Shown here piece after piece: positions 7,476-49,028 of a stretch of DNA of 64,000 nucleotides. The notes beneath the pieces were generated by a model that had not been told where the DNA came from, did no database searches, and saw only the letters and a program-made list of their open reading frames with translations. A program made the position numbers and the translations under genes. Each line of letters opens with the position of its first letter. The first letter of the stretch is position 1. This stretch comes from Mobula hypostoma (taxonomy: Eukaryota), in the NCBI RefSeq assembly GCF_963921235.1, contig NC_086097.1, positions 161,884,001-161,948,000 of the forward strand, given 5' to 3'.

Positions 7476-9156
7476 AGAGGCCATTTAAGAGTTGAACACA
7501 TTGGTAGCTCTGGAGTCACATATTGAATAAAGATTTTCTTCCGGAAGGCCATTATCAACCAGATACGTTTTCACAACAGTCCAGTATTCATGTACTTATC
7601 ATTACTAAATAATTAGTTTTATTAAACTTCAGAATACCATCTGAATTTAAATTCCACAGAGAACTAGGCCTCTGAGTTGATAATTTAAATACATAGTACC
7701 CAATAGGTGCTTGATACGATTCATTAATCCTGACTGTCATTCCTCTAACGTTTTTTCCCACGGTGAGTTATGGAAAATATTGATCTTGAACTGAGGAGGC
7801 ATTTGAGAATCATTTGCATTGATGGCTGTTGATGAATGGAAAATGCTGTTTGAAATCCTGAGTATTTAGTATTAATATATATAAAAAAAAAGGAATGGTT
7901 CAATTTTGAAATAGTCTCATGAAGGCAATTTTTGGCAAAAAGCTGCATTTTAAGTAATTATTTTAAAAATCCACTATAATGTATAAATTGCTATAAAATA
8001 TCAGATTCTTAAACACAAGATTTCTTAAAATTCAACATTATTTGCTTTGTGGCTTGTCTAAAGCATATTATAGTTCCTAAAGCTGCTACTGTTAGTCAGT
8101 AACTGATCAGGAAAGTACAATGACAGAGTAATCTTTGCTTGCCTGTGCAACTGCAGTGGTTCAGTTTCAATCCCTTTTTGCCATTGATCACAGCACACAA
8201 TGTAGGTCAATTTCAAGTGAAAATCAACCCACACAACATTCTAAATGAGCAAAACATTTAATGACTATTTTCAGACTGCCTGCTAAAGCAGAATGCCCTG
8301 TGTGATTGTTAGCCTTTGTTTATTCAGAATAACGTTGTCTGGAAGGACCCTTGGCTCTTAAAACGTGATTACTGCATTACTTAAACTGTACATAATATTG
8401 TGTGAATAATGGTTGCACTGATTTATCTTGCCACATTTTATTCGCCTTGAAATGAAGTTTTAAATGACGAATTTAAATGGTTAAACAATGGACGTTTCAT
8501 AATTTTCTGTAATTTGTTTGAATAATTCCCTAGTAGAATGTAGTTAATGCCTTGGATTAAATGTTAGGAAAACATTTCCCTTGAATATAGCATTTCTGGA
8601 GGAAAATATTTTAGCAAAACTATTTAATAGGCCAGAATTTACTTCTAAAATGAACAGAGTAGAGCTTCAGAAGTGGATGAGAGAGAAGGTTGCTGTCCAT
8701 TTGACTTGTTCCACCTTATTTGAGCAGTAGTGTTCATGTCTGCCTCACTATTACAATGTCTGAGAGCTGCTGTATTTGTGCATTAGATAGTTATTGCAAA
8801 TCTAAGTTTGCTATCACTGTTAATCCAATGAATTTGTCTGCAATGCAGATCAATTAAAGATACTGTTCTGCAGCAACACCCTGTTACCATTAATGCTGCC
8901 GAATAAACAGTTACGTATAAACCAGAGCATTATGAACACACAATATGATCACAATGAAGGAACCGGTTTACTGTCAACGGAGAATTAAATTGAGTTACAC
9001 CACACAACATAGATTGATAAAATTACGGTTGAGAAGAGAAATGTAATTGAGAGGACGCAAACAGCAGGAATTCTGCAGATGCTGGAAATTCAAGCAACAC
9101 ACATCAAAGTTTCTGGTGAACACAGCAGGCCAGGCAGCATCCCTAGGAAGAGGTAC

Positions 9157-9192
9157 AGTCGACGTTTCAGGCCGAGACCCTTTGTCAGGACT
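9157..9192 (-). ncRNA. Minimal hammerhead ribozyme, core mutated (CUGACAA)
   Basis: AGUC-CUGACAA-AGGGUCUCGGCCU-GAAA-CGUC-GACU; G8->A, probably inactive. Confidence 0.7.
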
Positions 9193-10062
9193 AACCGAAG
9201 GAAGAGTTAGTAAGAGATTTGAAAGTGGGAGGGGGAGGGGGAGATCCAAAATGATAGGAGAAGACAGGAGGGGGAGGGATGGAGCCAAGAGCGGACAGGT
9301 GATTGGCAAAAGGGATATGAGAGGATCATGGGACAGGAGGTCTGGGGAGAAAGACAGGGGGGGGGACCCAGAGGATGGGCAAGGGGTATAGTCAGAGGGG
9401 CAGAGGGAGAAAAAGGAGAGTGAGAGAAAGAATGTGTATATAAAAATAAATAACGGATGGGGTACGAGGGGGAGGTGGGGCATTAGCGGAAGTTAGAGAA
9501 GTCGATGTTCATGCCATCAGGTTGGAGGCTACCCAGACGGAATATAAGGTGTTGTTCCTCCAACCTGAGTGTGGCTTCATCTTTACGGTAGAGGAGGCCG
9601 TGGATAGGCATGTCAGAATGGGTTACAGTAGAGGAGGCCGTGGTCTGTCCACGGCCTCCTCTACTGTAAAGATGAAGCCACACTCAGGTTGGAGGAACAA
9701 CACCTTATATTCCGTCTGGGTAGCCTCCAACCTGATGGCATGAACATCGACGACTCTAACTTCCGCTAATGCCCCACCTCCCCCTCGTACCCCATCCGTT
9801 ATTTATTTTTATACACACATTCTTTCTCTCACTCTCCTTTTTCTCCCTCTGTCCCTCTGACTATACCTCTTGCCCATCCTCTGGTCCCCCCCCCACTTGT
9901 CTTTCTCCCCAGACCTCCTGTCCCATGATCCTCTCATATCCCCTTTGCCAATCACCTGTCCAGCTCTTGGCTCCATCTCTCCCCCTCCTGTCTTCTCCTA
10001 TCATTTTGGATCTCCCCCTCCCCCTCCCACTTTCAAATCTCTTACTAACTCTTCCTTCAGTT

Positions 10063-10098
10063 AGTCCTGACGAAGGGTCTCGGCCTGAAACGTCGACT
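10063..10098 (+). ncRNA. Minimal type I hammerhead ribozyme (intact core)
   Basis: Stem I AGUC/GACU, CUGACGA, stem II AGG..CCU, GAAA, minimal palindromic helix III ACGU, GUC cleavage triplet (cut after 10094). Confidence 0.85.
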
Positions 10099-13073
10099 GT
10101 ACCTCTTCTTAGAGATGCTGCCTGGCCTGCTGCGTTCACCAGCAACTTTGATGTGTGTTGCTGTAATTGAGAGGAAGTCTGTTACAAGTTCTGGATCTGC
10201 AAAATTAAAATGTGGTGCAAGAAACGAAGTGCTGAAGCATTTTGATGGGTGAAGCAACATCTGTGGGGTAAAGGAAATTGTTGACATATTCGTTCAGGAC
10301 CCTGTATTGAGTAACGAATGTTGTTTCTTTCAGAAGGGTAAATTCAAATGAAATTGTGGCTGCAGCATTAAAAGTTCCATATCTGAGTTGGGAATACTTG
10401 AAAGATAAAATAGAATTCCCATAAGTTTAAAGATGTATTGTATAAACAGTGTATTCTTAGATTAGTAAGAAAAGAAATATGCTCATAGAAGGCCATGTGT
10501 ATTTATTTCAGTAGTACTTTTTAAATAGACATTTTGTGTCAATTCTTCATAAATTAATTGTCATAAAATAGAATCTACATGTGTATATTACTTCATTATC
10601 AATCAGAAGATCACACAAATCAATTTTATGGGTAGACAGAATTTTGGTACGTTCTGCTGCAATGCAACACGCGAGAGAAAATAAATTGAGTCTTGACAAT
10701 TCATGCAAGTCAGGGAGAGGAGGAAAAAAGTTGAAACCAGAAATTTTGCCTTGAGCAGCTTCCCACTGAAGACCATTTAGTTCCAAAATGCTGCTTTGCA
10801 AACTGCAGAAAGGATAATAAATCATAGCAAATGTAAAATCTGCAAAAATGAAAATAAAGCAACACCACAATAACTGAATAAAAATATTGGCCATTCCTCA
10901 ATGTATAATAGTTTGTTCTGAGTGTGAGGAATAATCAGCAATATTCAGCTCCACTTTTACAGAAAGTGGATTCCTTAAAAAAATCTTTTAATAAGCAACT
11001 GTAACAAAATCAGTTTATAATCCATGCACTTTAAGCAGGAAATATCAATACTTAAAACAAAAGTAGACAAAATGTTGAAGTTAGGAGTAGTCAATCACAT
11101 TTCAATTGACCCAAAAGTCAATTTCATTTTTCTTGATCACATATGTCTTACCATGAAAATCATTGGCAAAATTAAATACCTCAGCATAGATCAATAAATA
11201 TTGAAGCTATTTTGTTTATTGAGCTGTTCAATAAAAGGGCTATGCTTATTATGATTTATGTCTGCTAAATGTCAATTTTAAATATGGTGTTTAAAAATTA
11301 GTATGTTATCTGAAAGTTATCTGTAACATTTGTGCTAACAACTATACCCACCATGTGTTGGGTCAGTGATTCACTGCAAGCTGCAGCCTCAACCATAACC
11401 TGCAGCGGAAATTAGCAAAGGATTGGGTATTCACCAGAAGAGAATACTACAGTGAGGATGAAATAACTATTCAACTGAAACTTTGCTGTGCAAAAATTTC
11501 TTTGACCATTTCAAATATTCTCAAACCACAGGGAATGTAAGAAAACATGATGGTAAAAAAAATACCCAACATATATTCCCAGCCATTTTACAATTGTGAT
11601 TATTTCATACCTTTCTTTTAAGGTATCTTGTAAGGCCAATGATCTCAAAAGGAAATGGGCAAGATTTATGAACTCAAGTTATTATATTTTTGCTTTTGTT
11701 TTCAAGCACAGTAAATAACGATTTACAATAAATGAAAAATAAAGTCATACCGTTTCTTCAGCAGATAGGATCAACATGTCATTTTTGTGTTGTAAGTTTA
11801 GGGAAACAATCTTAACAACCTTTTAAAATCACCTGGCTCCAATGAGAAGGAACTAGAGGCATAGAAAAGTACAACACAAGCAGGCCCTTTGGCACATTTA
11901 GTCTGTACCGAGCCATTTAAACTGCCTACTCCCATCACCAGGATCATAGTCGTCCATACCCCTCCCATCCAAGTACTTATCCAAACGTCTCTTAAACGTT
12001 GAAATCGAGCTTGCATGCACAATTGTGCTGGCAGTTTATTCCACACTCTCATGACACACTGAGTGAAGATGTTCCCCCCTTGTGTTCCCCTTAAGCCTTT
12101 CACCTCACACTCTTAACCCATGACCTCCAGTAGCAGTCCCACCCAACCTCAGTGGAAAAAACTTGCTTACATTTGCCCTATCTATACCCCTTAGACTTTT
12201 GTACACCTCTATCAAATTTCCTCTCAATCTTCTACACTCCAAGGAATGAAGTCCTAACCTATTCAATCTTTCCATATAACTTGGGTCTTCCATAACCAAC
12301 AACATCCTTGTAAATTTTCTCTGTACTCTTTGAAACTTATTTACATCTTTCCTGTACAAAACAGCACAAATTAGGCCTCACAAATGTCTTGTACAACATA
12401 TCATCTCATCTACTGTACTTAATACTTTGATTTATGAAGGCCCATGTTCCAAAAGCTTCATGACCCTATCAACCTATGATGCCACTTTTAATGAATTATG
12501 GACCTCTATTCCCAGATCCCTTTGTTCTACCGCACCCCTGAGTGCCCTCCCGTTCATTGTGTAAGACCTACCCTGGTTGGTCCCATCAAAGAGCAACACC
12601 AATCCCTACAACACTCCAATTGTCATGGGTCTCCAATCAAAGAGGCAACCATCTACTTCCACTCTCTGACTTCTCCCATAAAGCCAATGGCTAATCCAAT
12701 TTACTACCTCATCTTGAACACCTAGCAACTGAGCCTTCGTGACCAGCCTCCCAGGCAGGATCTTGTCAAATGACATACTAAAGTCCATGCAGACAACAGC
12801 CACTGCCTTTTCTTCATCAACTTTCTTGGTAACTTCCTTGGTTGGACATGACTTATGACACATAAAGCTATGCTGACTCTCCTTAATTAGTCCATGTCTA
12901 TCGAAATACTCATATATCTGGTCCCATAGAATACCTTCCAATAACGATCCCACTACTGATGTCAGGCTCACCGGCCTATAATTTATTTTTGAAGCTTTTC
13001 TTAAACAGTGGAACAACATTGGCTATCCCCCAATCTTCTGGTACTTTACCTGTCGCTAAGGATGATTTAAGTG

Positions 13074-16926: not shown

Positions 16927-17079
16927 CCATACATTATAAAGCAGTAGACTAAGATTAATTAAAATACATTTAGGCACAATTATTCTACAGCTTTTTTCAC
17001 CCTTTCTTTCTTTCATCTCTCCTCATTGTGCTTGAATCCCACTTGATATATTGTTTGGAGCTTCAGTACCACAAGTGGT

Positions 17080-17185
17080 AAACATAAAATACTCTGCAGA
17101 TGTTGGGGTCAAAGCAACACTCACAACACGCTGGAGGAACTCAGCGGGTTCCCAACCTGCTGAGTTCCTCCAGCGTGTTGTGAGT
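17080..17185. mobile_element. Mini palindromic PLE tail insertion
   Basis: 27-bp perfect inverted repeat ACTCACAACACGCTGGAGGAACTCAGC; TSD AGTACCACAAGT(G/C)GT at 17065-17079 and 17183-17197. Confidence 0.8.
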
Positions 17186-17204
17186 ACCACAAGTCGTTCT
17201 TTGT

Positions 17205-20714: not shown

Positions 20715-21300
20715 TCAGCACTGAGATTGACTTCCCCTCAAATCCACAGTCAATTCCTTGGTCTTACTGGCGTTGAGTACAAAGTTGTTGTTACAACACC
20801 ACTCAACCACCTGATCATTCTCACTCCGGTAGTCCTCCTTATCACCACCTAAATTTCTGCCAACACTAGTTGTGTCATTGGCAAATTTATAAATGATGTT
20901 TGAGCTGTTCCTAGCCATGTAGTCATGGGTGTAGAGAGAGGAGAGCAGTGGGCTAAACGCTACCCTTGACGTGTGATGATGACTGCAAGCAGGAGATGTT
21001 ATTTCCAATCCATATTGACTGTGGTCTCCTGATGAGGAAATCAAGGATTCAGTTGCAGAGGGAGTTACAGGGGACCAGGTCTTGGAGCTTGTTGGTTCGA
21101 ACTGAGGATATGATTGTGTTGAATACTGAGCTGTAATCAGCTTGACATAGGTATCGCTATTGTCCAAGTGATCCAAAGCATAGTGAAGACCCAGTGAGAT
21201 TGCATCAGCTGTAAACCTGTTGTGGCAATAGGCAAATTGCAGCGGGTCCAAGTTCTTGCTTAGGCAGGAGTTGATTCTCATCATGACCAACTTCTCAAAG
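20715..21300 (-). mobile_element. Rex1 LINE RT fragment
   Basis: LDPLQFAY..TADAI..HLD, SPLLSSLYTHD, IYKFANDT, LNASKTKEL. Confidence 0.8.
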
Positions 21301-27560: not shown

Positions 27561-27624
27561 CTATCTTTCATATCTTCCCCAGGTTACAACAGAGTTCTGT
27601 TCTTGTGAGCTATTCATAACCCAT

Positions 27625-27995
27625 ACACACAAGAGAGTTTGTAGATGCTGGAAATCCAGAGTAACACACAAAATGCTGGAGGAACTCAGACAGCATCTAT
27701 GGAAATTAATAAATAGTCAATGTTTCAGACTGAGGCCCTTCTTCAGGACTGGAAAGGAGGGGGGAAGACACCATAATGAAAAGGTTAAGGGGAGGGGAAG
27801 AAGGACTAGCTAGAAGGTGATTGGTGAAGCCAGGTGGGTGAAAAAGGCAAATGGCTGGAGAATAAAGAAAGATAGGAGAGGAGAGTGTAGCATGGAAGAA
27901 AGGGAAGGAAGAGGGGCTCCGGGGGAGGTGATAGGCAAGTGAGGAGAAAAGGTAAGAGGCTGGAGTGGGGAATGGAGGAAGGAGGAGGGAAAAAT
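27625..27995 (-). mobile_element. Older PLE pLTR/tail fragment with hammerhead (27715-27750)
   Basis: GCTGGAGGAACTCAG motif, pyrimidine-rich pLTR, AGUC-CUGAAGA..GAAACAUU-GACU on minus strand. Confidence 0.75.
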
Positions 27996-30880: not shown

Positions 30881-30895
30881 TCTGCAAAATAGTAA

Positions 30896-30988
30896 ACACG
30901 AGGAATTTTGCAGATGCTGGAAATTCAAGCAACACACATCAAAGTTGCTGCCTGGCCTGCTGCGTTCACCAGCAACTTTGATGTGTGT
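30896..30988. mobile_element. Mini palindromic PLE tail insertion
   Basis: Inverted GCAACACACATCAAAGTTGCTG arms; 13-bp TSD TGCAAAATAGTAA (30883-30895, 30989-31001). Confidence 0.85.
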
Positions 30989-33900
30989 TGCAAAATAGTA
31001 ATCCTGCATTCATGTTCATGCAGTTAATGTATATTATGAGCAGCAAGGGACCTTGCATTGTTCCTCAAGGTAGGCCACTGGTCAGACTCCAATTATAATA
31101 ACACCCCTTGGCTATCATCTTGTGTGTGCTTCCTGTGAGTGAGGTGTTTTTGATCAAATTCGTTGAATTGCTTTTAATCTTGCAGCCTCCTTTGGATCAG
31201 TCTTCCCCATGTGACCTTAGATTCCCTGTGCTTTGTTTTTAAAGAGGAGACTCCTTCAGTGTTTGAAAGCAAAGTATATCTAAAACAAGAACCTGAGTGG
31301 TCCTATCAACCCTTGACCAAGCTCTGCCATTTCATAAGAACATAAGAAATAGGAGCAGGAGTAGGCCATCGAGTCTGCCCCACCATTCAATAAGATCATG
31401 GCTAATCTGTCCATAAACTCAGCTCCATCTACCTGCCTCTTCCCCACAACCCTTAATTCCTCTACTATGTAAAAATCTATCTAACTATATCTTAAATATA
31501 TATAGTGAAGAAGCCTCAACTGCTTCCCTGGGCAGAGAATTCCACAGATTCACCACTCTTTGGGAAACACAGTTTCTCCTCATCTCCGGCCTAAATCTTC
31601 TCCCCTGAATCTTGAGGCAGTGTCCCCTAGTTCTAGTCTCACCTACCAATGGAAACAACTTTCCTACTTCTATCTTATCTATCCCTTTCAAAATTTTGTA
31701 TGTTTCTATAAGATCCTCTCTCATTCTTCCGAATTCCAGAGAGTACAGTCCCAGGTGGCTCAGTCTCTCCTCATAGGTTAATCCCTTCATCTCTGGAATC
31801 AACCTGGTGAACCTCCTCTTCACTGCCTCCAAAGCCAGTATATTTAAATGGTTTGGCATGGACCAGATGGGCCAAAGGGCCTGTTTCTGTGCTGTACTAC
31901 TCTATGACTTTATGCTTATCCTTCCTGAAATATGGAGACAGAACTGCACACAGTACTCCAGGTGCAGCCTCACCAGTACCCTGTACAGTTGCAGCATGAC
32001 CTCCCTGCTCTTGAATTCAATCCCTCTAACAATGAAGGCCAACATTCTATTTGCCTTCTTTATAACATGTTCTACCTGCAAGCCAACTTTTTGTGATTCA
32101 TGAACAAGCATTCCGAAGTCCTTCTGCACAACAGCATGCTACAATCTTTCACCATTTAAATAATGATCTGCATTTCTATTATTCCTTCCAAAGTGGTTGA
32201 TCTCGCATTTACCAACGTTATATTCCATCTGCCAGACCTTGGCCCACTCACTTAACCTACCTATATCCCTCTGCAGACTCTCCACATCCTCTGTACTATT
32301 TGCTTTTCCACTCAGTTTAGTGTCATCTGCAAATTTTGCTTTGGTACACAGTCCGCTCTTCCAAATCACCAATGTAAACGGTAAACAGCTGCAGGCCCAG
32401 CACCGATCCCTGTGGCACCCCACTCACCACTGACTGCCAACTGGAGAAATACCCATTTATACCAACTCTCTGCCTTCTATTGGTTAACCAATCCACTATC
32501 CATGCCAATACACTTCCTCTGACTCCCTGCATCTCTGTCTTATTTGGAAGTCTCTTGTGCGGCACCTTATCGAACACCTTCTGGAAATCCAATGGGACAT
32601 CCACCTGTTCCCCTCTATCCACTGCACTCATTATGTCCTCAAAGAACTTCAGTAAGTTTGACAAACAGGACCTGCCCTTTCTGGATCCATGCTGCGTCTG
32701 TCTAATGGAACCACTCCTTTCTAAATGTTTCACTATTTCTTCCTTAATGACTGCTTCAAGCATTTTCACGACTGCAGATGTTAAGCTAACTGGCCTATAG
32801 TTGCCTGTCTTTTGCCTACATCCTTTTTTAAAAAGTGGCGTGACACTTGCTGTCTTCCAATCCACCAGGACCTGCTCAAAGTCTAGAGAATTTTGGTAAA
32901 TGATTACCATTGCGTCTACTATAACCGCCGCCAATTCCCTCAGCACCCTGGAATGCATCCCATCAGGACCGGGGACTTATCTATCTTCAGGCCCTCTAGT
33001 TTGCTCATCACTATCTCTTTAGTGACAGTGATTTTATCGAGGTCCTCACTTCCCATTTTGTCCATAACATCCTTCTTTGGCATATTAGACATATCCTCCA
33101 CTGTGAAGACCGACACAAAATAGTTGTTCAATACCTCAGCCATTTCCTTATCACCCAATATTAATTTCCCCTTCTCGTCTTCCAAGGGCCCTACATTGAC
33201 TTTAGCCACCCTCTTCCACTTTATATATTTATAAAAACTTTTGCCATCTGTTTTTATATTTTGTGCTAATTTAGTTTCATACTCTATCTTCCCTTTCCTT
33301 ATTTATTGTTTAGTTGTTCTCTTGCTTTTTAAAGTTTTCCGAATCCTCCAGTCTCCCACTACTCTTTGCGACTTTGTACACATAAGCTTTTAATTTGATA
33401 GTATCGTTTATTTCCTTAGTTATCCAAGGCTGGCTCTCCCCACACATACTGTCCTTCCTTCTGACTGGAATATACTTTTGTTGAGCTCTGTGAAAAATCT
33501 CTTTTGAAAGTATTCCATTGTTCCTCAACTGTCCTACCAAATAGCCTGTGCTCCCAATCCACATTAGCCAGCTCCTCCCTCATCCCATTGTAGTCTCCCT
33601 TGTTCAAGCATAATGCAGTTGTTTTAGATCTAACTATTTCATCCTCCATCTGTATGCGAAATTCAATCATACTATGATCACTCTTTCCAAGAGGATCCCT
33701 GACTACAAGATCGTTAATCTTACCTGTATCATTGCACAAGAATAGATCTAAGATAGCGTTTTCCCTTGTAGGTTCACTAACATGCTGCCCAAGAAAGCCA
33801 TCCGGGATGCATTCTATGAAGTCCTGCTCAAAACTTCCTTGACCAACCTGATTCACCCAATGTATGTGGAAGTTAAAATCCCCCATGACAACTGCTGTTA

Positions 33901-34893
33901 CGTTCTACAAGCCTCAGTTATTTCTTGGTTCATCGCCTCTGTCACTGCAATATTTTTATTAGGCAGCCTGTAGACAACTCCCACCAATGATTTTCTTTTC
34001 CTTTTACTATTCTTAATCTCTACCCAAATGGACTCAACATTCTGCTCCGTAGATCTTATATCATCTCTCTCAATCACCCTGATCTCATCCTTAACTAAGA
34101 GTGCCACCTCACCTCCTTTGCCTTCCTGCCTATCTTTCCATATTACCTGATGCCCTTGGATATTTAATTCCCAGTCATCTCCACCTTGCAACCAGGTTTC
34201 TGTAATGGCCACCAAATCATATGCCTTGGTACTGATCTGTGCCACAAGTTCACTAATCTTGTTTCTAATACTACGAGCATTTAGATAAAGTGCCCTTATA
34301 CTCATTATCCTTTTAGAATCTAGTGACCTATGCGATTTTTGCTTTTTACTTTTATGCACTCTACTCGTACTTTTTTCTTCTCTAACATTAGCTTTGGTGT
34401 TCTGTATCACTTCCCTCTTCTTTTCTGTGTGGGTTCCCATCCCCCTGCCATACTAGTTTAAAGCCTCCCCAACATCTCTAGCAAACAATCTCCTTAGGAT
34501 ATTGATCCTGGCTGTGCCCAGATGTAGATCGTCTGGACAGTACTGGTCCCATCTCCCCCAGAAGTGGTTCCAATGCCCCAAGAATCTGAAACCCTCCCTC
34601 CTGCACCACTGCTCAAGCCACATATTCATTCTAGCTATCCTGCTATTCCAACTCTGGCTAGCACATGGCACCAGTAATAATCCTGAGATTATTACCTTTG
34701 AGGTCCTACTCTTTAATTTATCTCCTAGCTCCCTAAATTCAGCTTGTAGGGCTTCATCCTGCTTTCTTCCTTTATTGTTAGTACCTACATGCACCACGAC
34801 AGCTGGCTGCTCACCCTCCCCTTTCAGAATTTCCTGCAGCCTCTCCGAGACATCTCTGACCCTTGCACCCGGGAGGCAACACACCATACGGGA

Positions 34894-35368
34894 ACACACA
34901 TCAAAGTTGCTGGTGAACGCAGCAGGCCAAGCAGCATCTATAGGAAGAGGCGCAGTCGACGTTTCAGGCCGAGACCCTTCGTCAGGACTAACTGAAGGAA
35001 GAGTGAGTAAGGGATTTGAAAGCTGGAGGGGGAGGGGGAGATGCAAAATGATAGGAGAAGACAGGAGGGGGAGGGATAGAGCCGAGCGAGTTTGAGTCAA
35101 AGTGTGGTCGAAAAGTTGAAGGGCCGAAGAAATTACAGATGGGGAGCAGTGAGAGATGGTTTCACTGAACTCCCGTCGAAGAGAGGATCTAAACTTCTTC
35201 GGTGTAGGCATCACCGGAAGAGGCTTCGCAGTAGTGAATTTAAACGCAAACAACAGGAATTCTGCAGATGCTGGAAATTCAAGCAACACACATCAAAGTT
35301 GCTGGTGAACGCAGCAGGCCAAGCAGCATCTATAGGAAGAGGCGCAGTCGACGTTTCAGGCCGAGACC
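34894..35368 (-). mobile_element. Internally deleted direct-repeat PLE (5' pLTR remnant, tail, ORF start, 3' pLTR)
   Basis: Two direct pLTR pieces flank MPTPKKFRSSLRREFSETISHCSPSVISSALQLFDH; CGGGA duplicated at 34889-34893 and 35369-35373 in CR1 ORF1. Confidence 0.8.
34954..34989 (-). ncRNA. Minimal hammerhead ribozyme (intact core)
   Basis: AGUC-CUGACGA-AGGGUCUCGGCCU-GAAA-CGUC-GACU. Confidence 0.85.
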
Positions 35369-35617
35369 CGGGAGTCCAGTTTGCGGCCACAGAAGCTCCT
35401 CTCTATTCCCCTTACCATGGAATCCCTTACCACAACAGCTCCACCACCAGGTCAGCTCAAGAATCTGATGGTTGTAGGCAAGTAGCTATTCTTGTACATG
35501 GTCGTGCCTTCTTTTGTTTTAAGATGTACTTTAAAAGCACTAAACAACATTTTTGAGCACCTCTAATTAGCTGACCACCTTTACCTATGGATTTTATTTT
35601 CCTCTTATGGTTTGAAA

Positions 35618-37737
35618 TCTATTTACTATTAAAACTCTCATCCTCTGTCTGTTTGTCTGTTTGTGACCTCCAATTAGTGCAAATGGTGCATTACAGCGGC
35701 ACTCGTTTTGGCCTAAATTGAATTAAAATGCACTAACTTAGAGAATGCAGGCAAAGTTCAGGGTTATATGTTCGTATAAAATTGCTCATTCGCCAAAATA
35801 AACAGGCTGCCTTTTAACCCGAGACCCGATCGGCCATCATGGAAATCGGGACGCGACAGCCCGACGCATGTGCACGGCCAGTTGCAGCAGCGACACCTAC
35901 CGGAGCAAAAGGGCAGGGCAGCTCTATTTCGTGGGGTCACATTCTGCTAATCACCACCATCAACATGTGCAGGATTGGGACAGATCTAACTGCCACCCAT
36001 CAATAAGAGGTAATTAAATCTTATTGTAACGACATACTTTGAGACACCCATAAAACCCTTTGCTGCAGTCAAAAGACAGCGGTGACTATATCACGTCCAT
36101 TTAGCAGAACGCCAACCACATCATCAAGGATAATCAACATCCTTTGGTGTTACTGTTTCGTATCTTCTATCCAGCATTAGGGTAAAAAAATAGTCAGCCG
36201 AATTATGCCACGTGGAAAGGGAAGGGAGACATTATAGTCAAGACCCAGGATCAAAGAGTCAGGACAAAAAAAGATGAGAGAAGAAGAGACAGAGGAGGAG
36301 AGGCATGCACATCTCCAGGATCAGAGATAAACAACAAACAGCAGAAGAGCTGAAGAGATGGGGGATGAAAGGGCTACATGTCTCCAGAATGACAAGGAGA
36401 GGCACAAAGGTGGCAGAGCAACTCTTACAACACACTGGAGGAACTCAGCAGGTCGGGCAGCATCCATGGAAATGATCAGTCAACGTTTCGGGCCAGCCGG
36501 AACCCTTCATCAGGACTGAAGAGGGGAGGGGCAGAGGCCCTATAAAGAAGGTGGGGGGAGGGTTGGAAGGAGAAGGCTGGTAGGTTCCAGGTGAAAAAAC
36601 AGTAAGGGGAAAGATAAAGGGGTGGCGGAAGGGAAGCAGGGAGGGGATAGGCAGGAAAGGTGAAGAAGGAATAGGGGAAAGCACAATGGGTAGTAGAAGG
36701 AGGCGGAGCCATGAGGGAGGTGATAGGCAGCTGGGGAGGGGACAGAGTGAAATAGGGATGGGGAAGGGAGGGGGAGGGAATTGCCGGAAGTTGGAGAATT
36801 CAGTGTTCATGCCCAAGGGCTGGAGACTTCCCAGACGGTATATGAGGTGTTGCTCCTCCAACCTGAGTTTGGCCTCATCCTGGCAGTAGAGGAGGCCATG
36901 TATGGACATATCTGAATGGGAATGTGAAGCAGAGTTGAAGTGGGTGGCAACCGGAGATCCTGTCTGTTGTGGCGGATGGAGTGCAGGTGCTTGATGAATC
37001 GTGTTTCACCGATGTAGAGGAGGCCACACTGGGAGCACCAGATGCAATAGATGACCCCAACAGACTCACAAGTGAAGTGTTGCCTCACCTGGAAGGACTG
37101 TCTGGGCCCTGAATGGTGGCAAGCGAGGAGGTGTAGGGACAGGTGTAGCACTTACGCTTACAGGGTTAAGTGCTGGGTGGGAGATCTGTGGGGAGGGACA
37201 GGTGGACCAGGGAGTTGCCGAGGGAACGATCCCCGCAGAAAGCGGAGAGGCGTGGAGGGGGAAAGATGTGTTTAGTGGTGGGGTCCTGTTGAAGGTGGTG
37301 GAATATGGAGGATAATGTGCTGAATCTGGAGGCTGGTGGGGTGGTAGGTGAGGACAAGGGGAACTCTGTCCCTGTTGTGGTGACAGGAGGATGGGGTGAG
37401 GGCCGAAGTGCGGGAAATGGGAGAGATGTGGGTGAGGGCATCATTGATGATGGCAGAAGGGAAACCATGATCCTTAAAGAAAGAGGACATTTGAGATGTC
37501 CTGGATGGCAGATAAGCCAGAAATGATGCTATCAAAAGTGTCCTTCGTTAAACAAGGAGGAGCTATATTTGCTTTGCTATGCGTCGTTCTTCTTTAATAA
37601 ACTGAGGTTTACTCCTTCAGTTTCCAAGGCAAAGCGATACCAACAGTATTCAGGAAAATTTAATGTTCATTCTGGTCACATCAGACTGCACTACCCTTCT
37701 CTCAAAAGGTGCCCCAACAGGTCACCCTGTTGTCTAT
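35618..37737 (+). mobile_element. Probable non-autonomous Helitron
   Basis: A|TC start with TCTATTTACTATTAAAAC and (TGTC/TGTT)n; E/R-rich ORF remnant (ETEEERHAHLQDQR); 3' hairpin GGTGCCC..GGTCACC followed by CTAT (degenerate CTRR); no TSD. Confidence 0.5.
36418..37505 (-). mobile_element. 5'-truncated Neptune-type PLE (second subfamily) with hammerhead at 36477-36518
   Basis: GVIYCIWCSQCGLLYIGET GIY-YIG domain; CAGUC-CUGAUGA..GAAACGUU-GACUG; 7-bp TSD TGGCAGA (36411-36417, 37506-37512). Confidence 0.88.
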
Positions 37738-38450: not shown

Positions 38451-39048
38451 TTCATGTCTTTGTTGCTTTTTATTTTTGGCAAATTGTATAACTTCATCCT
38501 TCTGTATTAAACTTTATCTGCCAATTGCCTGTTCGTTCTGCCAGCCTGTCTGTTACCCATCCATATCATTACTAGCAAACTTCCAAGCCTTGTTATTGGT
38601 GCAGTTTTTGTATGGTTGGGCACCTGCTGCTGGGTTATGTTGTTTGTTCCAACATAGTCACTTGATAAGAGCCTGGAGTACTTTGGCAAAGCCTACTGTG
38701 GCATCAGGGCTGTCTTAGCTTCTGCAGTAGTATACAGGTTCCCTTTGGCAGCAAATGAGACTGTCCCCAAGCTCATTAATTGTCAGACGTGTCAGTATTA
38801 TAATTCTTTCTGAATGTCTTTGATGCTCACAATAACATAAGAACTGTTTTAAAAATATTTACATATTAAAGTTCAATAAATGACATTGCAATAACTTCTC
38901 AAAACAAAACGATCTCCATTTAGGTTAACTTAATGAATGCAGCTTCAGTGGACAGACTTTCCTGGAAGAACTGGGAACTTGGAAGCAGATTCTGCTGTTC
39001 TGTTGGACTTAAGTCTACTGAGCAATATTGGGACAGTTATAACCCATG

Positions 39049-39202
39049 CAAATACACTCAAAATGCTGGAGGAACTCAACAGGCCTTGTAGCATCTATGG
39101 AAAAGAGTATTTTCCATAGATGTAGCCTGGCCTGCTGAGTTCCTCCAGCATTTTGTGTGTTGCTTGGATTTTTAGAATCTGCAAATTTTCTCTTGTTTGT
39201 GA
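39049..39202. mobile_element. Mini palindromic PLE tail insertion (opposite orientation)
   Basis: Inverted AAAATGCTGGAGGAACTCA..CATCTATGGAAAA arms; TSD TATAACCCATG (39038-39048, 39203-39213). Confidence 0.82.
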
Positions 39203-39893
39203 TATAACCCATGGCAGTGGGTTAAAAGGTGCTGCTTATGGTTGAGTTGGGACACAGGATTTGACCCGTTCAGAAAACTGTTAGCGTCACATAGTGTGAA
39301 CATCAACGAGTATTAGAAATCTCAATTTCCTCTTTCACTTTTCCCATTCCTACTGCTATTGATACTTTAATTCCATGGGTTTCAAGTTTGCTATTCAGCC
39401 TTTTGCATAGGACGTCATCTTCTGAAATGCATGCAGGTGATATTTATTGCATTCTTTTGTTTCTGACTGTTGTGAATTTGTTTCCATATTTAGTGATTTT
39501 TATTTTTATAAAAATTATGAGTTCCATATTCAAATTAAATTCTCTTCCAAGCTGTAATTTGACTTCCTAAAGATGTTTGCTGTTTCATCAATAAAAACAC
39601 AATCAAGTTAGTTAAATGCAGTTTTCCTTAAATAATTCAATGTTGGCTCTTCCTTAACAACGTGAGCTTCAAAAGTAGTTTTTAATGTTTTCTGTGAACA
39701 TTGGTTCTAAGTGTTTCTCCTCAGCTAAGGACTTGTAATTTCCTGGTATTTCCTTACCTCCCCTTTGAACAACTTTTGTGTTACTTTTTAAACGCAAACA
39801 ACAGGAATTCTGCAGATGCTGGAAATTCAAGCAACACACATCAAAGTTGCTGGTGAACGCAGCAGGCACGGCAGCATCTGTAGGAAGAGGTGC

Positions 39894-39929
39894 AGTCGAC
39901 GTTTCAGGCCAAGACCCTTCGTCAGGACT
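39894..39929 (-). ncRNA. Minimal hammerhead ribozyme (intact core)
   Basis: AGUC-CUGACGA-AGGGUCUUGGCCU-GAAA-CGUC-GACU. Confidence 0.85.
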
Positions 39930-41833
39930 AACTGAAGGAAGAGTGAGTAAGGGATTTGAAAGTTGGAGGGGGAGGGGGAGATCCAAAATGATAGGAGAAG
40001 ACAGGAGGGGGAGGGATAGAGCCAAGAGCTGGACAGGTCTTAGGCAAAAGGGGATACGAGAGGATCATGGGACAGGAGGTCCGGGAAGAAAGACAAGTGG
40101 GGGGGGAACCCAGAGGATGGGCAAGAGGTATATTCAGAGGGACAGAGGAAGAAAAAGGAGAGTGAGAGAAAGAATGTGTGCATAAAAATAAGTAACAGAT
40201 GGGGTATGAGGGGGAGGTGGGGCCTTAGCGGAAGTTAGAGAAGTCGATGTTCATGCCATCAGGTTGGAGGCTACCCAGACGGAATGTTGTTCCTCCAACC
40301 TGAGTGTGGCTTCATCTTTACAGTAGAGGAGGCCGTGGATAGACATGTCAGAATGGGAATGGGATGTGGAATTAAAATGTGTGGCCACTGGGAGATCCTG
40401 CTTTCTCTGGCGGACAGAGCGTAGATGTTCAGCAAAGCGGTCTCCCAGTCTGCGTCGGGTCTCGCCAATATATAAAAGGCCACATCGGGAGCACCGGTGG
40501 GATCCCGTTGGAGGTTGCACGCATGCAGAACTCGTTGACTTTATTAACTTTGCCTCCAACTTTTACCCTGCCCTCAAGTTTACCTGGTCCATTTCCGACA
40601 CCTCCCTCCCCTTTCTAGATCTTTCTGCCTCTGTTTCTGGAGACAGCTTATCCACTGATGTCTACTATAAGCCTACGGACTCTCACAGCTATCTGGACTA
40701 TTCCTCTTCTCACCCTGTCTCTTGCAAAAACGCCATCCCCTTCTCGCAATTCCTCCATCTCCACCGCATCTGCTCTCAGGATGAGGCTTTTCATTCTAGA
40801 ACGAGGGAGATGTCTTCCTTTTTTAAAGAAAGGGGCTTCCCTTCCTCCACTATCAACTCTGCTCTTAAACGCATCTCCCCCATTTCACGTACGTCTGCTC
40901 TCACTCCATCCTCCCGCCACCCCACTAGGAATAGCGTTCCCCTGGTCCTCACCTACCACCCCACCAGCCTCCGGGTCCAACATATTATTCTCCGTAACTT
41001 CCGCCACCTCCAACGGGATCCCACCACTAAGCACATCTTTCCCTCCCCCTCTCTCTCTGCATTCCGCAGGGATCGCTCCCTACACAACTCCCTTGTCCAT
41101 TCGTCCCCCCCATCCCTCCCCACTGATCTCCCTCCTGGCACTTATCCGTGTAAGCGGAACAAGTACTACACATGCCCTTACACTTCCTCCCTTACCACCA
41201 TTCAGGGCCCCAAACAGTCCTTCCAGGTGAGGCAACACTTCACCTGTGAGTCGACTGGGGTGATATACTGCGTCCGGTGCTCCCGATGTGGCCTTTTATA
41301 TATTGGCGAGACCTGACGCAGACTGGGAGACCGCTTTGCTGAACATCTACGCTCTGTCCGCCAGAGAAAGCAGGATCTCCCAGTGGCCACATCCCATTCC
41401 CATTCTGACATGTCTATCCACGGCCTCCTCTACTGTAAAGCTGAAGCCACACTCAGGTTGGAGGAACAACACCTTACATTCCGTCTGGGTAGCCTCCGAC
41501 CTGATGGCATGAACATCGACTTCTCTAACTTCTGCTAAGGCCCCACCTCCCCCTCGTACCCCATCTGTTACTTATTTTTATGCACACATTCTTTCTTTCA
41601 CTCTCCTTTTTCTCCCTCTGTCCCTCTGAATATACCTCTTGCCCATCCTCTGGGTCCCCCCACCCCCCGTCTTTCTTCCCGGACCTCCTGTTCCATGATC
41701 CTCTCGTATCCCCTTTTGCCTATCACCTGTCCAGCTCTTGGCTCCATCCCTCCCCCTCCTGTCTTCTCCTATCATTTTGGATCTCCCCCTCCCCCTCCTA
41801 CTTTCAAATCCCTTACTCACTCTTCCTTCAGTT

Positions 41834-41869
41834 AGTCCTGACGAAGGGTCTCGGCCTGAAACGTCGACT
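41834..41869 (+). ncRNA. Minimal hammerhead ribozyme (intact core)
   Basis: AGUC-CUGACGA-AGGGUCUCGGCCU-GAAA-CGUC-GACU. Confidence 0.85.
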
Positions 41870-42132
41870 GCACCTCTTCCTACAGATGCTGCCTGGCCTG
41901 CTGCGTTCACCAGCAACTTTGATGTGTGTTGTTTGTGTTACTTTTGCTATTTTTTAGTCCTCTGGCATCTCCCCTAAGGAAGTTCTGCAAAAATCACCCT
42001 CATCTCTTTTGGCAACAGAAAACATTCCATTCTGCATTTTAAATTTTGAGCAAAGCTCAAAAGTTCTTGTACCCTTTTGACATCAGTTTTTTCCCTCATA
42101 CGTCATTTCTACTTCCTCAACAAGAAATATTT

Positions 42133-43215: not shown

Positions 43216-44439
43216 TTTCTATCTCTGAAGGCAGCTCACCCACTGATGTCTATTATAAACCCATGGACTCTCACAGCTATCCATACTGTACCTCTTCCCA
43301 CCCTGTTACTTGTAAAAACGCCATCCCCTTCTCTCAATTCCTCTGCCTGCACCGCATCTTCCCTCAGGATGAGGCTTTTCATTCCAGAACAAAGGAGATG
43401 TTCTTGTTTCAAAGAAAGGGCCTTCCCTTCCTTCACCATCAATGCTCCCCTCAACCACATCTCTTCCATTTCATGCATGTCTGCTCCTACCCCATCCTCC
43501 CGCCACCCTACCAGGGATAGGGTTCCTCTTGTCCTCACCTACCACCCCACCAGCCTTTGTGTCCAGCACATAATTCTCTGAAACTTCCGCCATCTCCAAC
43601 GGATCCCACCACCAAACACATCTCCGCCCCCCCCCCACTTTCTGCTTTCCGCAGGGACCGCTCCCTATGCGACTCCCTTGCCCATTCATCCCTCCCAGTG
43701 ATCTCCCTTCTGGCACTTATCCTTGCAAACGGAACAAGTCCTACACCTGCCCCTACACCTTCTCCCTCACTACCAGTCAGGGCCCTAAACTGTCTTCCAG
43801 GTGAGGTGACACTTCACCTGTGAGTTTGTTGGGGTCATATACTGTGTCCGGTGCTCCCTGTGTGGCCTCCTGTATGTCGGTGAGACCCGACATAGATTGG
43901 GAGACCAAATTGCAGAGCATCTATGTGCTGTCCGCCAGAAAAAGTGGTATCTCCCAGTAGCCATCCATTTTAATTCCACTACACATTCCCATCCTGATAT
44001 GACTGTCCATGGCCTCATCCACTGTCGTGATGAGGCCACACTTAGCTTGGAAGAACAACAACACCTTATATTCTGTTTAGAACCTCCAATCTGATGGCAT
44101 GAACATCAATTTCTCGAACTTCTGGTAATGCCCTTCCCCATCCCTGTTTCCCCCTCTCACCTTATCTTCTTGCTCATCCATCATCTCCTTCTGGTGCTGC
44201 TCCCACTTTTCTTTCTTCCGTAGCTTTTTTTGTCTCTTTCAGCAATTTACTTCCCAACTGTTTACTTCATCTCTCCTCCTTCAGGTTTCACCTATCACCT
44301 TTTGTTTCTCCCTCTCCTTCCCCCCATCTTTTAAATCTCAGGTTTTTTTCTCCAGTCCTGCCGAAGTGTTTCGGCCCGAAACGTTGACTGTACTCTTTTC
44401 CTAGATGCTGTCTGGCCTGCTGACATTTTGTGTGTGTTG
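43216..44439 (+). mobile_element. Older 5'-truncated Neptune-type PLE with mutated hammerhead (44354-44389)
   Basis: Frameshifted RT thumb/GIY-YIG; core CUGCCGA; ends at GTGTGTTG; imperfect TSD TAAGAA(A)TGTT. Confidence 0.85.
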
Positions 44440-45370: not shown

Positions 45371-47838
45371 CTGATGGGATAGAATTTGTCAAATGTGTTC
45401 AGGAAGGTTTCCTTAATCAGTACATAGAAGTCCCAACGAGAGAGTTTACGATACTTGATCCACTATTAGGGAATGCGACCAAGTTGTTGACAGAAGGTTG
45501 TGTAGGGGAACACTTTGCATCTAGTGATCACAATGCCATTTGTTTCAAAGTAAGTATGCAAAAAGATGGATCTGGGCCGTGGGTTGAGATTCTGAATTGG
45601 AGAAAGGCCAATTTTGTTGGTGTCAGAAAGGATCTGGCATATGAGGATTGGATTGAAATTTTGAGAGTACTAATCTTGTATATGCCTGTCAGAATAAAAG
45701 GTGAAGTTAGCAGATGTAGGAAAACTTGGTTTTCAAGAGATATTGAGGCCCTGGTTAAGAAAAAAAAGTGTATTGCAGGTATAGGCAGGTAGGAACAAAT
45801 GAGGTGATTATGGAGTATAAGCAATACAAAAGAACATTTGAGAAAGAACTCAGGAAGGGGTAAAAGAAGGCATGAGTTTGCCCAAATAAACCAGGTGAAG
45901 GAGAATTCTAAGGGATTCTACAAATATGTTAAGAGCAAAAGGATCGCAGGGGACAAAATTGGTCAGCTGGAAGATCAGAATGGTAATCCATGTGTGGAGC
46001 CAAAAGAGATGGGGGGAGATCATAAATAATCTTTTTTGCATCTGTATTTACTCAGCAGACAGACAGAAAGTCTATAGAAATGCAGTAAAGTGGCACCAAC
46101 TCCATGGATCTTATACATATTACAAAGCAGAAGGTGTTTGCTGTCCTGAAGCAAATTAGGATAGATTACTCCCCAGGGCTTGACAAAGTGTTTCCTGAGA
46201 AATTGCTAGGGCCCCAGCAGAGATATTTAAAGCATCCTTAGCGACAAGTGAGGTACCAGTGGATTGGAGGATAGCCAATGTTGTTCCGCTGTTTAAGAAA
46301 GGCTCTAGAAATAATCCAGGAAATTAAAGTCTTTTTCTTTTTAAATCTTTTTATTGAATTAGTACACAAAAGGCAAACCAAATAGACACTAATACACTGT
46401 TGCAATATAAATTTACAAGAGATATTAATACACAAAATAAGTTAGTACAAACAGTGCAGTTTGGATATAAAATAATAAGGTAATATAATAGTATACTAAT
46501 TTTCCATACATATCAATAAAGCGAAGAAAACCCCCCCCAAAAAAACCCACCGTGCAACTAATCTAAAAAGCAAAGCAAAGCAATGGGCTAACTAGGTATC
46601 AAGTAGACTTAAACAACTTAAAACAATCACGTCCTCAAACCCAACCTCCATTAAAAACAGTTAAAAAGCAAGAAGGGAATGTAAATATGGGCAAAGAGAA
46701 AAAAAAATACATTAAATGAAAATGTTGAATAAAAGATCTCCAGGTCTGTTCAAATTTAACTGAAGTATCATAAAGATTACTTCTGATTTTCTCCAAATTT
46801 AAACATAGTATCGTCTGAGAAAACCAAAAGAACGTAGTTGGGGCATTAATCTCCTTCCAATGTTGTAAAATACATCTTTTCGCCATTAAAGTAAGAAATG
46901 CAATCATTCTACGGGCTGAAGGGGAAAGATTATTGGAAATTTTAGGTAATCCAAAGATAGCAGGAATAGGACGGGGAGAGATATCTATATTCAATACCTT
47001 TGAAAAAATATTAAAAATGTCTTTCCAAAAAGTTTCCAAAGTAGGACAGGACCAAAGCATGTGAGTTAAGGAAGCAATCTCCCCATGACATCTGTCACAA
47101 AGAGGATTAATATGAAAATAAAAACGAGCTAATTTATCTTTAGACATATGTGCTCTATGATTTTAAATTGAATTAGGGAATGTTTGGAACAGATAGAGGA
47201 AGTATTGACTAGTTGTAAAATATGTGCCCAGTCATCCGCCGAGATAATAAAGCCCAATTCCTTTTCCCAATCTGACCTAATCTTATCGAATGGAACTTTC
47301 TTAAGTTTCATGATAATATTATAAATAATAGCCGTTACACCTTTCTGACATGGGTTAAGGTTAATTATAGTATCTAAAATATATGTAGGAGGTAACATCG
47401 GAAAGGAAGAGAGTATAGTACTTAGGAAATTTCTAATTTGGAGATATCTAAAAAAATGTATTCTTGGTAAGTTATATTTGTTAGATAATTGTTCAAAAGA
47501 CATAAGGGAGCCATCTAAAAATAAATCCAAAAACCATGATATACCATTAGTCTTCCAAATTTGAAAGGCACGGTCTGTGGAAGAGGGGGGAAAGAATATG
47601 TTGCCTAAAATAGGAATCGCAAGCCCAAATTGATTAAGATCGAAAAATTTTCGGAATTGAAACCAAATACGTAAGATATATTTAACTATCGGGTTACAAA
47701 CCTGTTTGTGGCGTTTCAAATTGAAAGGAAGAGAAGAACCTAAAATGGAGCCAAGTGCATAACCTTGAGCAGATTGTAATTCCAATACTACCCACTTAGG
47801 AATGGATAATGTATCTTGATCAAGTAACCAAAATTTCA

Positions 47839-49028
47839 ATTCCTCCGTCTCCGCCGCATCTGCTCTCAGGATGAGGCTTTTCATTCAAGGACGAGGGAGA
47901 TGTCTTCCTTTTTTAAAGAAAGGGGCTTCCCTTCCTCCACTATCAACTCTGCTCTTAAACGCATCTCCCCCATTTCACGTACATCTGCTCTCACTCCATC
48001 CTCCTGCGACCCCACTAAGAATAGGGTTCCCCTGGTCCTCACCTACCACCCCACCAGCCTCCGGGTCCAACATATTATTCTCCGTAACTTCCGCCACCTC
48101 CAACAGCATCCCACCACTAAGCACATCTTTCCCTCCCCCCGTCTCTCTGCATTCCGCAGGGATCGCTCCCTACACAACTCCCTTGTCCATTCATCCCCCC
48201 CCATCCCTCCCCACTGATCTCCCTCCTGGCACTTATCCGTGTAAGCGGAACAAGTGCTACACATGCCCTTACACTTCCTCCCTTACCACCATTCAGGGCC
48301 CCAAACAGTCCTTCCAGGTGAGGCAACACTTCACCTGTGAGTCGACTGGGGTGATATACTGCGTCCGGTGCTCCCGATGTGGCCTTTTATATATTGGCGA
48401 GACCCGACGCAGACTGGGAGACCGCTTTGCTGAACATCTACGCTCTGTCCACCAGAGTAAGCAGGATCTCCCAGTGGCCACACGTTTTAATTCCACATCC
48501 CATTCCCATTCTGACATGTCTATCCACGGCCTCCTCTACTGTAAAGATGAAGCCATACTCAGGTTGGAGGAACAACACCTTATATTCCGTCTGGGTAGCC
48601 TCCAACCTGATGGCATGAACATCGACTTCTCTAACTTCCGCTAAGGCCCCACCTCCCCCTCGTACCCCATCTGTTACTTATTTTTATGCACACATTCTTT
48701 CTCTCACTCTCTTTTTTCTCCCTCTGTCCCTCTGAATATACCTCTTGCCCATCCTCTGGGCCCCCCCCCGTCTTTCTTCCCGGACCTCCTGTCCCATGAT
48801 CCTCTCGTATCCCCTTTTGCCTATCACCTGTCCAGCTCTCGGCTCTATCCCTCCCCCTCCTGTCTTCTCCTGTCATTTTGGATCTCCCCCTCCCCCTCCA
48901 ACTTTCAAGTCCCTTACTCACTCTTCCTTCAGTTAGTCCTGACGAAGGGTCTTGGCCTGAAACGTCGACTGCACCTCTTCCTACAGATGCTGCTTGGCCT
49001 GCTGCATTCACCAGCAACTTTGATGTGT
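47839..49028 (+). mobile_element. 5'-truncated Neptune-type PLE inserted in L1 ORF2
   Basis: PCKRNKCYTC linker + intact GIY-YIG (GVIYCVRCSRCGLLYIGET..RFAEH..EEQHLI..GMN); 15-bp TSD GTAACCAAAATTTCA (47824-47838, 49029-49043). Confidence 0.93.
48935..48970 (+). ncRNA. Minimal hammerhead ribozyme (intact core)
   Basis: AGUC-CUGACGA-AGGGUCUUGGCCU-GAAA-CGUC-GACU. Confidence 0.85.

What the first reader, a model, noticed from the sequence alone, without database searches (positions are those of the whole stretch)
9042..10175. Palindromic Penelope-like insertion with two fixed but different ends: a twin-priming signature
Seen: between a perfect 14-bp TSD lie two inverted copies of the PLE 3' end. 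One arm ends at ...GATGTGTGTTGC; the other runs about 40 nt further through the tail (...CCAGCATCTGCAGAATTCCTGCTGTTTGCGT). The same asymmetry recurs in all five palindromic insertions (9056, 17080, 30896, 39049, 39789). The four non-palindromic copies with TSDs also stop at the GTGTT(GC) point (34894, 36418, 44439, 49030), often with 1-3 nt microhomology to the target. Known: PLEs have pLTRs, short tails and occasional inverted copies, and internal priming has been described for PLEs. Inference: each strand of a ~14-nt staggered GIY-YIG cut primes its own cDNA, one internally and one at the tail. The arms cover the same sequence, so two templates (or re-use of one) are needed. This would be a distinct, rule-governed integration route for Neptune PLEs.
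Basis: partly seen in the sequence, partly recalled or inferred. Interest (0 to 1): 0.8.

Follow-up and report, generated by a model that had tools for sequence, protein, structure and literature searches.

The report
Two-ended Penelope retroelement insertion, one-sided tail
This is a real, decayed mirror-image insertion of a Penelope-like jumping gene with about 38 extra bases on one arm only; that layout is already described for this class, and it was likely made by copying the element's RNA from both cut strands of the target.

Summary
Bases 9056-10161 hold two head-to-head 3' pieces of a Neptune/Nematis-type Penelope-like element (PLE) between an exact 14-bp target-site duplication (TSD). 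One arm stops at site A (end of GTGTTGC); the other runs 38 nt further, to site B. All 5 of 5 palindromes in the window pair an A arm with a B arm (TSD 11-14 bp). The ends are clusters (A -8..+4, B +33..+44), not single bases, and only 1 of the 4 named solo copies has a clear long TSD. Arm divergence of 3.7% excludes an assembly fold-back. Contigs of three runs show sharp ends at B; site A appears in one run's listed rows. The anatomy is published: an inverted pLTR with a 30-40 nt tail on one end (Arkhipova 2013; Craig 2021). Two RT start sites and extension of both target strands were shown in vitro (Frangieh 2024). It is not Neptune-specific. Priming from both target strands is the likeliest mechanism (about 0.6): neither arm contains the other in 4 of 5 palindromes. 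I found no paper stating that model (4 searches). A strict genome-wide A+B rule could not be tested.

The parts
9042..9055 (.). Left copy of the 14-bp target-site duplication
   Evidence: exact match to 10162-10175
9056..9622 (-). Tailed (B-ended) arm: 5'-truncated 3' end of the PLE (end of the endonuclease ORF, 3' UTR/pLTR, hammerhead-like core, site A at 9094, 38-nt tail 9056-9093)
9623..9643 (-). Extra 21-nt inverted piece at the centre; forms a perfect hairpin with 9649-9669 around a 5-nt loop that reads in the right arm's orientation
   Evidence: direct reading; alignment
9644..10161 (+). Untailed (A-ended) arm covering the same element region; differs from the left arm at 19 of 514 aligned sites
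10063..10100 (+). Minimal hammerhead-like core (CTGACGA...GAAAC) about 65 nt upstream of site A; mirror copy in the left arm near 9155-9192
   Evidence: sequence read against the min-HHR description in PMC4209133 (passages); no Rfam hammerhead match
10162..10175 (.). Right copy of the 14-bp TSD
17065..17194 (.). Short palindrome of another subfamily; tailed arm left, A arm right; TSD 12 bp exact
30883..31001 (.). Short palindrome; tailed arm left, A arm right; TSD 13 bp; 5-nt microhomology at the centre
39038..39213 (.). Short palindrome of an older subfamily; A arm left, tailed arm right; TSD 11 bp
39775..41945 (.). Long palindrome; 709-nt tailed arm (minus, 39789-40497) and 1434-nt A arm (plus, 40498-41931); TSD 14 bp
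47824..49043 (+). Simple 5'-truncated A-ended copy with a 15-bp TSD; encodes a linker CX4CxxC motif and a GIY-YIG endonuclease with two internal cysteines
34889..35373 (-). Direct partial tandem: pLTR piece + tail + 158 nt of putative ORF start, joined to an A-ended 3' piece; 5-bp TSD; shows that the template runs past site B
27618..27939 (-). Old tailed copy without an inverted partner; no TSD found
36418..37490 (-). Old A-ended copy; TSD doubtful
43218..44439 (+). Old A-ended copy; 10-bp TSD candidate at 43025/44438

Best explanation
This is a dead, 5'-truncated head-to-head insertion of a Neptune/Nematis-type Penelope-like retroelement, likely made by two-ended target-primed reverse transcription. 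Shown: two inverted arms from one subfamily, an exact 14-bp TSD, one arm ending at A and the other 38 nt further at B, and a template that continues past B in another copy. Inferred: the element's GIY-YIG endonuclease nicks both target strands 11-15 nt apart. Each 3'-OH primes a cDNA on a read-through (tandem) RNA at one of the two internal start sites that bound the tail. The two truncated cDNAs are then joined at their 3' ends by a template jump or 0-5 nt microhomology, and host repair fills in. Also inferred, and less sure: the site-A cDNA usually reaches further and jumps onto the end of the site-B cDNA, which would fit two RT subunits working on one RNA.
For: TSDs of 11-14 bp around all 5 of 5 palindromes. 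0-3 nt microhomology to the target at most A and B ends. The solo copy at 49030 with a 15-bp TSD shows that A is an ordinary primed end. In 4 of 5 palindromes neither arm contains the other, so one cDNA folding back on itself cannot make them without a later deletion. The centres differ at every locus, so they are made anew. The two arms at 9056 share 14 diagnostic sites against three other copies. Contigs laid on 35087-35369 show loose ends with long unrelated flanks at B. In X1 these are 35242/46/47/48 with 226/181/238/261 contigs; in X5, 35242/47/48 with 161/218/213; in X20, 35247/48 with 85/77. At A they show in X5 (35281, 146 contigs). Summed depth falls by roughly 65- to 350-fold across B in these three runs; X16 laid only one contig. 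In vitro, the anole Poseidon protein cleaves and extends both strands, starts RT at two sites that bound the tail, and is predicted to be a dimer (PMC11167929, parts 1-2 of 4 read).
Against: Only 5 palindromes were examined, as no genome is held. At the focal locus itself the tailed arm reaches about 14 nt further 5' than the untailed arm, and the centre holds a small fold-back piece, which is what self-priming leaves. Two other centres are near-perfect hairpins with 3-5 nt loops; two independently truncated cDNAs would rarely give that. In vitro no strand preference of start site was seen, so nothing known forces A+B pairing. Site A is not among the 6 loose-end rows shown for X1, and only 18 of 787 loose-end rows were shown in all. 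The arms of the 39789 palindrome are no closer to each other (3.7%) than to the solo copy (3.2-3.6%), so a shared RNA molecule is not shown. A tailed solo exists (27618).
Confidence: 0.6

Rival explanations
1. Self-priming and trimming: one long cDNA that starts beyond the tail folds back and copies itself into a hairpin. The endonuclease then resolves the intermediate asymmetrically, at A on one strand and B on the other, before or during integration.
For: Arkhipova 2013 reads junction palindromes as self-priming, and Craig 2021 ascribes the tail to endonuclease resolution of an intermediate. Hairpin centres with 3-5 nt loops occur at 17151, 39105 and 9644, each loop reading in the A-arm orientation. 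There is a 5-nt microhomology at the 30946 centre. This model builds in the A+B pairing and the longer A arm.
Against: Both tail boundaries were later shown to be target-primed RT start sites in vitro. Solo copies end at A with a TSD. At 9056 the tailed arm overshoots the hairpin by about 14 nt, which needs a second template read.
Confidence: 0.25
2. One target-primed cDNA starts at A, then the RT jumps to an antisense transcript or another genomic copy and writes the second arm in the sense direction, ending near B.
For: Bidirectional pLTR promoters and antisense templates were proposed in PMC3846280. A template jump is visible in the tandem at 35086/35087.
Against: It gives no reason for the second arm to stop within +33..+44 at 5 of 5 loci, or for the sharp B boundary in three runs.
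Confidence: 0.1
3. Assembly fold-back artefact, or chance juxtaposition of two separate insertions.
For: Inverted PLE structures are known to trouble short-read assemblies.
Against: The arms differ at 19 of 514 sites, with 10 and 7 private changes. One exact 14-bp TSD brackets both arms. The ends and the centre are asymmetric. Four runs of one sample hold 95-96% of the sampled words of 7500-11500, though these may be the window's own source.
Confidence: 0.02

Closest known systems
Canonical endonuclease-bearing PLE insertion unit, e.g. Pen2a_Av of Adineta vaga (Arkhipova et al. 2013, PMC3846280; passages read)
   Same: Inverted pLTR next to the direct copy, whole unit inside one TSD, a 31-bp tail on one of the inverted pLTRs, small palindromes at the inversion junction.
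   Different: TSDs here are 11-15 bp versus 8-10 bp in the passages read; the copies here are 5'-truncated stubs; that paper invoked self-priming, not priming from both target strands.
General PLE layout in Craig et al. 2021 (PMC8557442, Fig. 2 legend and passages)
   Same: An inverted 5'-truncated copy and a 30-40 bp tail often present at only one end; Neptune/Nematis linker CX2-5CxxC and CCHH endonuclease motifs.
   Different: There the tail is ascribed to endonuclease resolution of an intermediate, and no A+B pairing rule is quantified in the passages read.
PAc, Poseidon of Anolis carolinensis (Frangieh et al. 2024, PMC11167929; parts 1-2 of 4 and a term search)
   Same: Two internal RT start sites bounding the tail, downstream of a hammerhead, near a stem-loop; both target strands cleaved and extended; AT-rich targets (TSDs here 70% AT versus 60% for the window).
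   Different: Different clade (Poseidon lacks the linker Zn-finger); its loop is AC-rich, the loop here GU-rich. The main text has no occurrence of 'palindrom', 'TSD' or 'duplication', and its only 'twin' is a tag name, so it does not link the two sites to inverted insertions.
L1 twin priming
   Same: Both target strands prime cDNA, giving an inverted 5' part inside one TSD.
   Different: In L1 the two parts are adjacent, non-overlapping pieces of one RNA and one primer uses the poly(A) end; here the arms overlap and both start at recurrent internal sites.

Membership tests
Endonuclease-bearing Penelope-like elements | C-terminal GIY-YIG endonuclease with the two cysteines of the CCHH motif between GIY and YIG | tested here: met
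   Frame 47820-48644 reads VIY-CVRCSRC-GLL-YIG; Pfam GIY-YIG E=3e-4, 21.4 bits, just under the 22.6 cut-off; definition
Endonuclease-bearing Penelope-like elements | PLE-type reverse transcriptase upstream in the same ORF | tested here: inconclusive
   All copies in the window are 5'-truncated; frame 40501-41316 gave no Pfam hit; the homologue search with the 47820 frame gave 3 hits, none named as a PLE
Endonuclease-bearing Penelope-like elements | pLTRs in direct or inverted arrangement with an optional 30-40 nt tail | tested here: met
   5 inverted units and 1 direct tandem; tail +33..+44
Endonuclease-bearing Penelope-like elements | Minimal hammerhead motif in the pLTR | tested here: inconclusive
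   Core motif seen by eye at about 10063-10100 and in line with PMC4209133; no Rfam hammerhead match; activity untested
Neptune clade | CX2-5CxxC Zn-finger-like linker between RT and endonuclease (shared with Nematis, absent in Penelope/Poseidon) | tested here: met
   C-KRNK-C-YT-C in frame 47820-48644; definition
Neptune clade | RT phylogeny placing it with Neptune rather than Nematis | not tested
   No RT core in the window and no reference set fetched
Twin-priming products (L1 sense) | Inverted and direct parts are non-overlapping pieces of one RNA | tested here: not met
   The arms cover the same element region; it works like twin priming but is not the L1 form
Twin-priming products (L1 sense) | Both ends primed by target DNA within one TSD | tested here: inconclusive
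   TSD and 0-3 nt microhomology fit, but priming itself is inferred

The most novel reading that the evidence does not exclude
The A+B pairing is obligatory because the two RT active sites of a PLE dimer load on one RNA 35-45 nt apart, each primed by one strand of a staggered cut. The leading (A) enzyme is followed by the trailing (B) enzyme, which displaces its cDNA, and the leader then jumps onto the trailer's 3' end. This would explain in one step the one-sided tail, the overlapping arms, the A arm reaching further in 4 of 5 cases and the near-symmetric centres. It would be a single-RNA, double-copy integration route not stated in the papers I could search.
Probability: 0.25. Interest if true: 0.65.

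Novelty: new member of a known kind. Interest (0 to 1): 0.3.

Why it matters
How PLEs make their inverted repeats and one-sided tails is still called undefined in the papers read. The structure here is the known one, so the locus alone adds little. Its use is as data: a ray-type fish family at high copy number (tens of thousands of contigs laid per run) would allow a census of end pairing and arm reach. That census can separate two-ended priming from fold-back, and it extends the two-start-site finding from a Poseidon element to a Neptune/Nematis-type one.

Tried and rejected
No whole genome is held, so the census of palindromes could not be done. Pattern scans for the family found 0 loci in metagenome contigs and 0 in genome contigs. 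Run X16 laid 1 contig and was uninformative. Rfam: no match at gathering level in the window; E-value hits at 9570-9682 are hairpin-shaped miRNA models far below their cut-offs and only reflect the palindrome. RNA folding: site A sits in the 3' strand of a hairpin closed by pairing with the tail, but z-scores are -0.68 and -1.61. Only 1 of 20 consensus pairs has a compensatory change, and it is not in that hairpin, so a conserved structure is not shown. A same-molecule test from shared variants was inconclusive. Hammerhead cleavage as the source of either end was rejected: the core lies about 65 nt upstream of A. Literature: searches gave no paper that proposes twin priming for PLEs (judged from listings and abstract starts). 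[quoted passage not shown] S1, S2) were not read; they may bear on novelty. Preprint 10.64898/2026.07.22.740005 (term search) has no mention of tail, TPRT or priming.
Full report
Observation. The focal locus is as described. Bases 9042-9055 and 10162-10175 are an exact 14-bp duplication. Between them a minus-strand arm (9056-9622) and a plus-strand arm (about 9644-10161) cover the same 3' region of a retroelement. I call the last base of the motif GTGTTGC site A. The right arm ends at A+0/+1 and the left arm runs to A+38/39, site B. The arms differ at 19 of 514 aligned sites, with 10 and 7 private changes among five long copies. They share 14 diagnostic sites against the other three copies. 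This, the asymmetric ends and the single TSD rule out an assembly fold-back for practical purposes.

The other four palindromes are also real, each with one tailed and one untailed arm and an exact TSD of 12, 13, 11 and 14 bp. Five mixed pairs out of five has a chance of about 0.03 under free choice of end: suggestive, not proof of a rule. The ends are clusters. Nine A-type ends lie at -8..+4 and five palindrome B ends at +33..+44, counting microhomology (my reading). The copy at 49030 has 15 bp, 34894 has 5 bp around a direct tandem, 44439 has a 10-bp candidate, and 36418 has nothing convincing. 27618-27939 is tailed with no partner and no TSD found. 35369-35087 runs through the tail and 158 nt on into a putative ORF start, so B is likely not the end of the template.

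Identity. The longest solo copy encodes a CX4CxxC linker and a GIY-YIG endonuclease with two internal cysteines (Pfam PF01541 E=3e-4, slightly below cut-off). By the definitions in Craig et al. 2021 (PMC8557442, passages) that is a Neptune- or Nematis-type PLE; the RT core is missing, so the clade was not placed on a tree. A minimal hammerhead-like core lies about 65 nt upstream of A (compare PMC4209133, passages). Rfam does not detect it.

Beyond the window. No genome is held, and pattern scans of two collections were empty. I laid contigs of four runs on 35087-35369, which spans A, B and the ORF start. X1, X5 and X20 laid 63,183, 40,343 and 8,399 contigs; X16 laid 1. Summed depth drops steeply across 35237-35256 in all three, by roughly 65- to 350-fold between the tail bins and the bins beyond. 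This figure is inflated, because older subfamilies share the tail but not necessarily the ORF start, and contig depth is no copy number. The listed loose ends with long unrelated flanks fall at 35242-35248 (A+35..+41) in all three runs and at 35281 (A+2) in X5. Only 18 of 787 rows were shown, and A is not among X1's six. So B is a sharp, recurrent end in three organisms, and A is seen in one. The pairing of A with B per insertion could not be counted.

Mechanism. A single cDNA that starts at B, folds back and stops at A must leave the tailed arm as the longer one. In 4 of 5 palindromes the opposite holds. The untailed arm reaches further by about 3 nt (17151), 5 nt (39105), 24-27 nt (30946) and about 775 nt (40498). 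A cDNA that starts at A and folds back cannot supply the tail. So two reads of a tail-bearing template are needed, or one longer hairpin trimmed afterwards. Frangieh et al. 2024 (PMC11167929, parts 1-2 of 4) showed that a Poseidon PLE protein cleaves and extends both target strands and starts RT at two internal sites whose spacing is the tail; they also predicted a dimer. Together with TSDs and short microhomologies at both ends, this makes two-ended target priming the best reading (0.6). Against it: three centres are tight hairpins, including a 21-nt piece at 9623-9643 in the focal locus. There the tailed arm is also the one that reaches about 14 nt further. The in vitro work saw no strand preference of start site. 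Self-priming with endonuclease trimming, close to the views in PMC3846280 and PMC8557442, remains at 0.25. Whether one RNA is read twice is open: the arms of the 39789 unit are no closer to each other than to the solo copy (3.2-3.7%).

Comparison with what is known. Arkhipova et al. 2013 describe an inverted pLTR inside one TSD with a 31-bp tail on one of the inverted pLTRs as the typical Penelope structure, also seen in flies and fish (passages). Craig et al. 2021 state that the 30-40 bp tail is often present at only one end and that this layout is shared by Penelope/Poseidon, Neptune, Nematis and Naiad (passages). The anatomy is thus known and not special to Neptune. I did not find in print the explicit link from the two start sites and two-strand extension to inverted units with one end of each kind (searches; term search of the 2024 paper). 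Subscription papers and supplements were not seen. Earlier scan notes from this and other genomes reach the same view; they are unchecked notes and are not counted as support.

Verdict. A real feature and a new member of a known kind. Interest 0.3. The bolder reading, an obligatory A+B pair made by a dimer on one RNA, has probability about 0.25 and would merit about 0.65.

Noticed in passing
tables 5 and 5c (window 35241-35291): Four of the five opposite-strand joint rows shown join a B end (35241-35248) to an A end (35278-35291), 10 contigs in X1 and X5. As I read the table this is a tail-to-tail A/B arrangement; no A-A or B-B row is shown, but 15 of 30 rows are hidden and the spacer length is unknown. 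It could be neighbouring insertions, tandem palindromes or another resolution product of two-ended priming.
   Followed up: no
window 30880-30916, 39770-39788, 34875-34883: Several target sites resemble the element's own A-B region (11-nt identity with the tail at 30880; a 9-nt copy of the site-A motif next to the 34894 junction). The mean local score of 7 rebuilt empty sites was 19.0 versus 16.4 for background, P=0.026, post hoc and uncorrected.
   Followed up: partly
window 34889-35373: Direct partial tandem whose two pLTR pieces are identical over 84 sites, with a jump about 195 nt downstream of site A. It is inserted in the esterase-like frame (34453-35292) of another repeat; that label is recalled from the motif, not from a call.
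   Followed up: partly
window 9056-10161 and 39789-41931: Arms of both long palindromes differ by 3.7%, the same as separate copies of one subfamily, so there is no sign of gene conversion between arms despite the hairpin geometry.
   Followed up: partly
window 46635-52944: A long, decayed L1-like (APE endonuclease + RT) element on the minus strand into which the solo PLE copy 47824-49043 is inserted; further L1-like, L2/CR1-like and RT fragments at 462-1007, 20715-21302 and 32323-34452 (family labels recalled from the translated motifs).
   Followed up: no
window 12083-12313/55152-55382, 13976-14130/45861-46015, 15070-15224/45373-45527: Inverted pairs of other dispersed repeats at 78-85% identity.
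   Followed up: no
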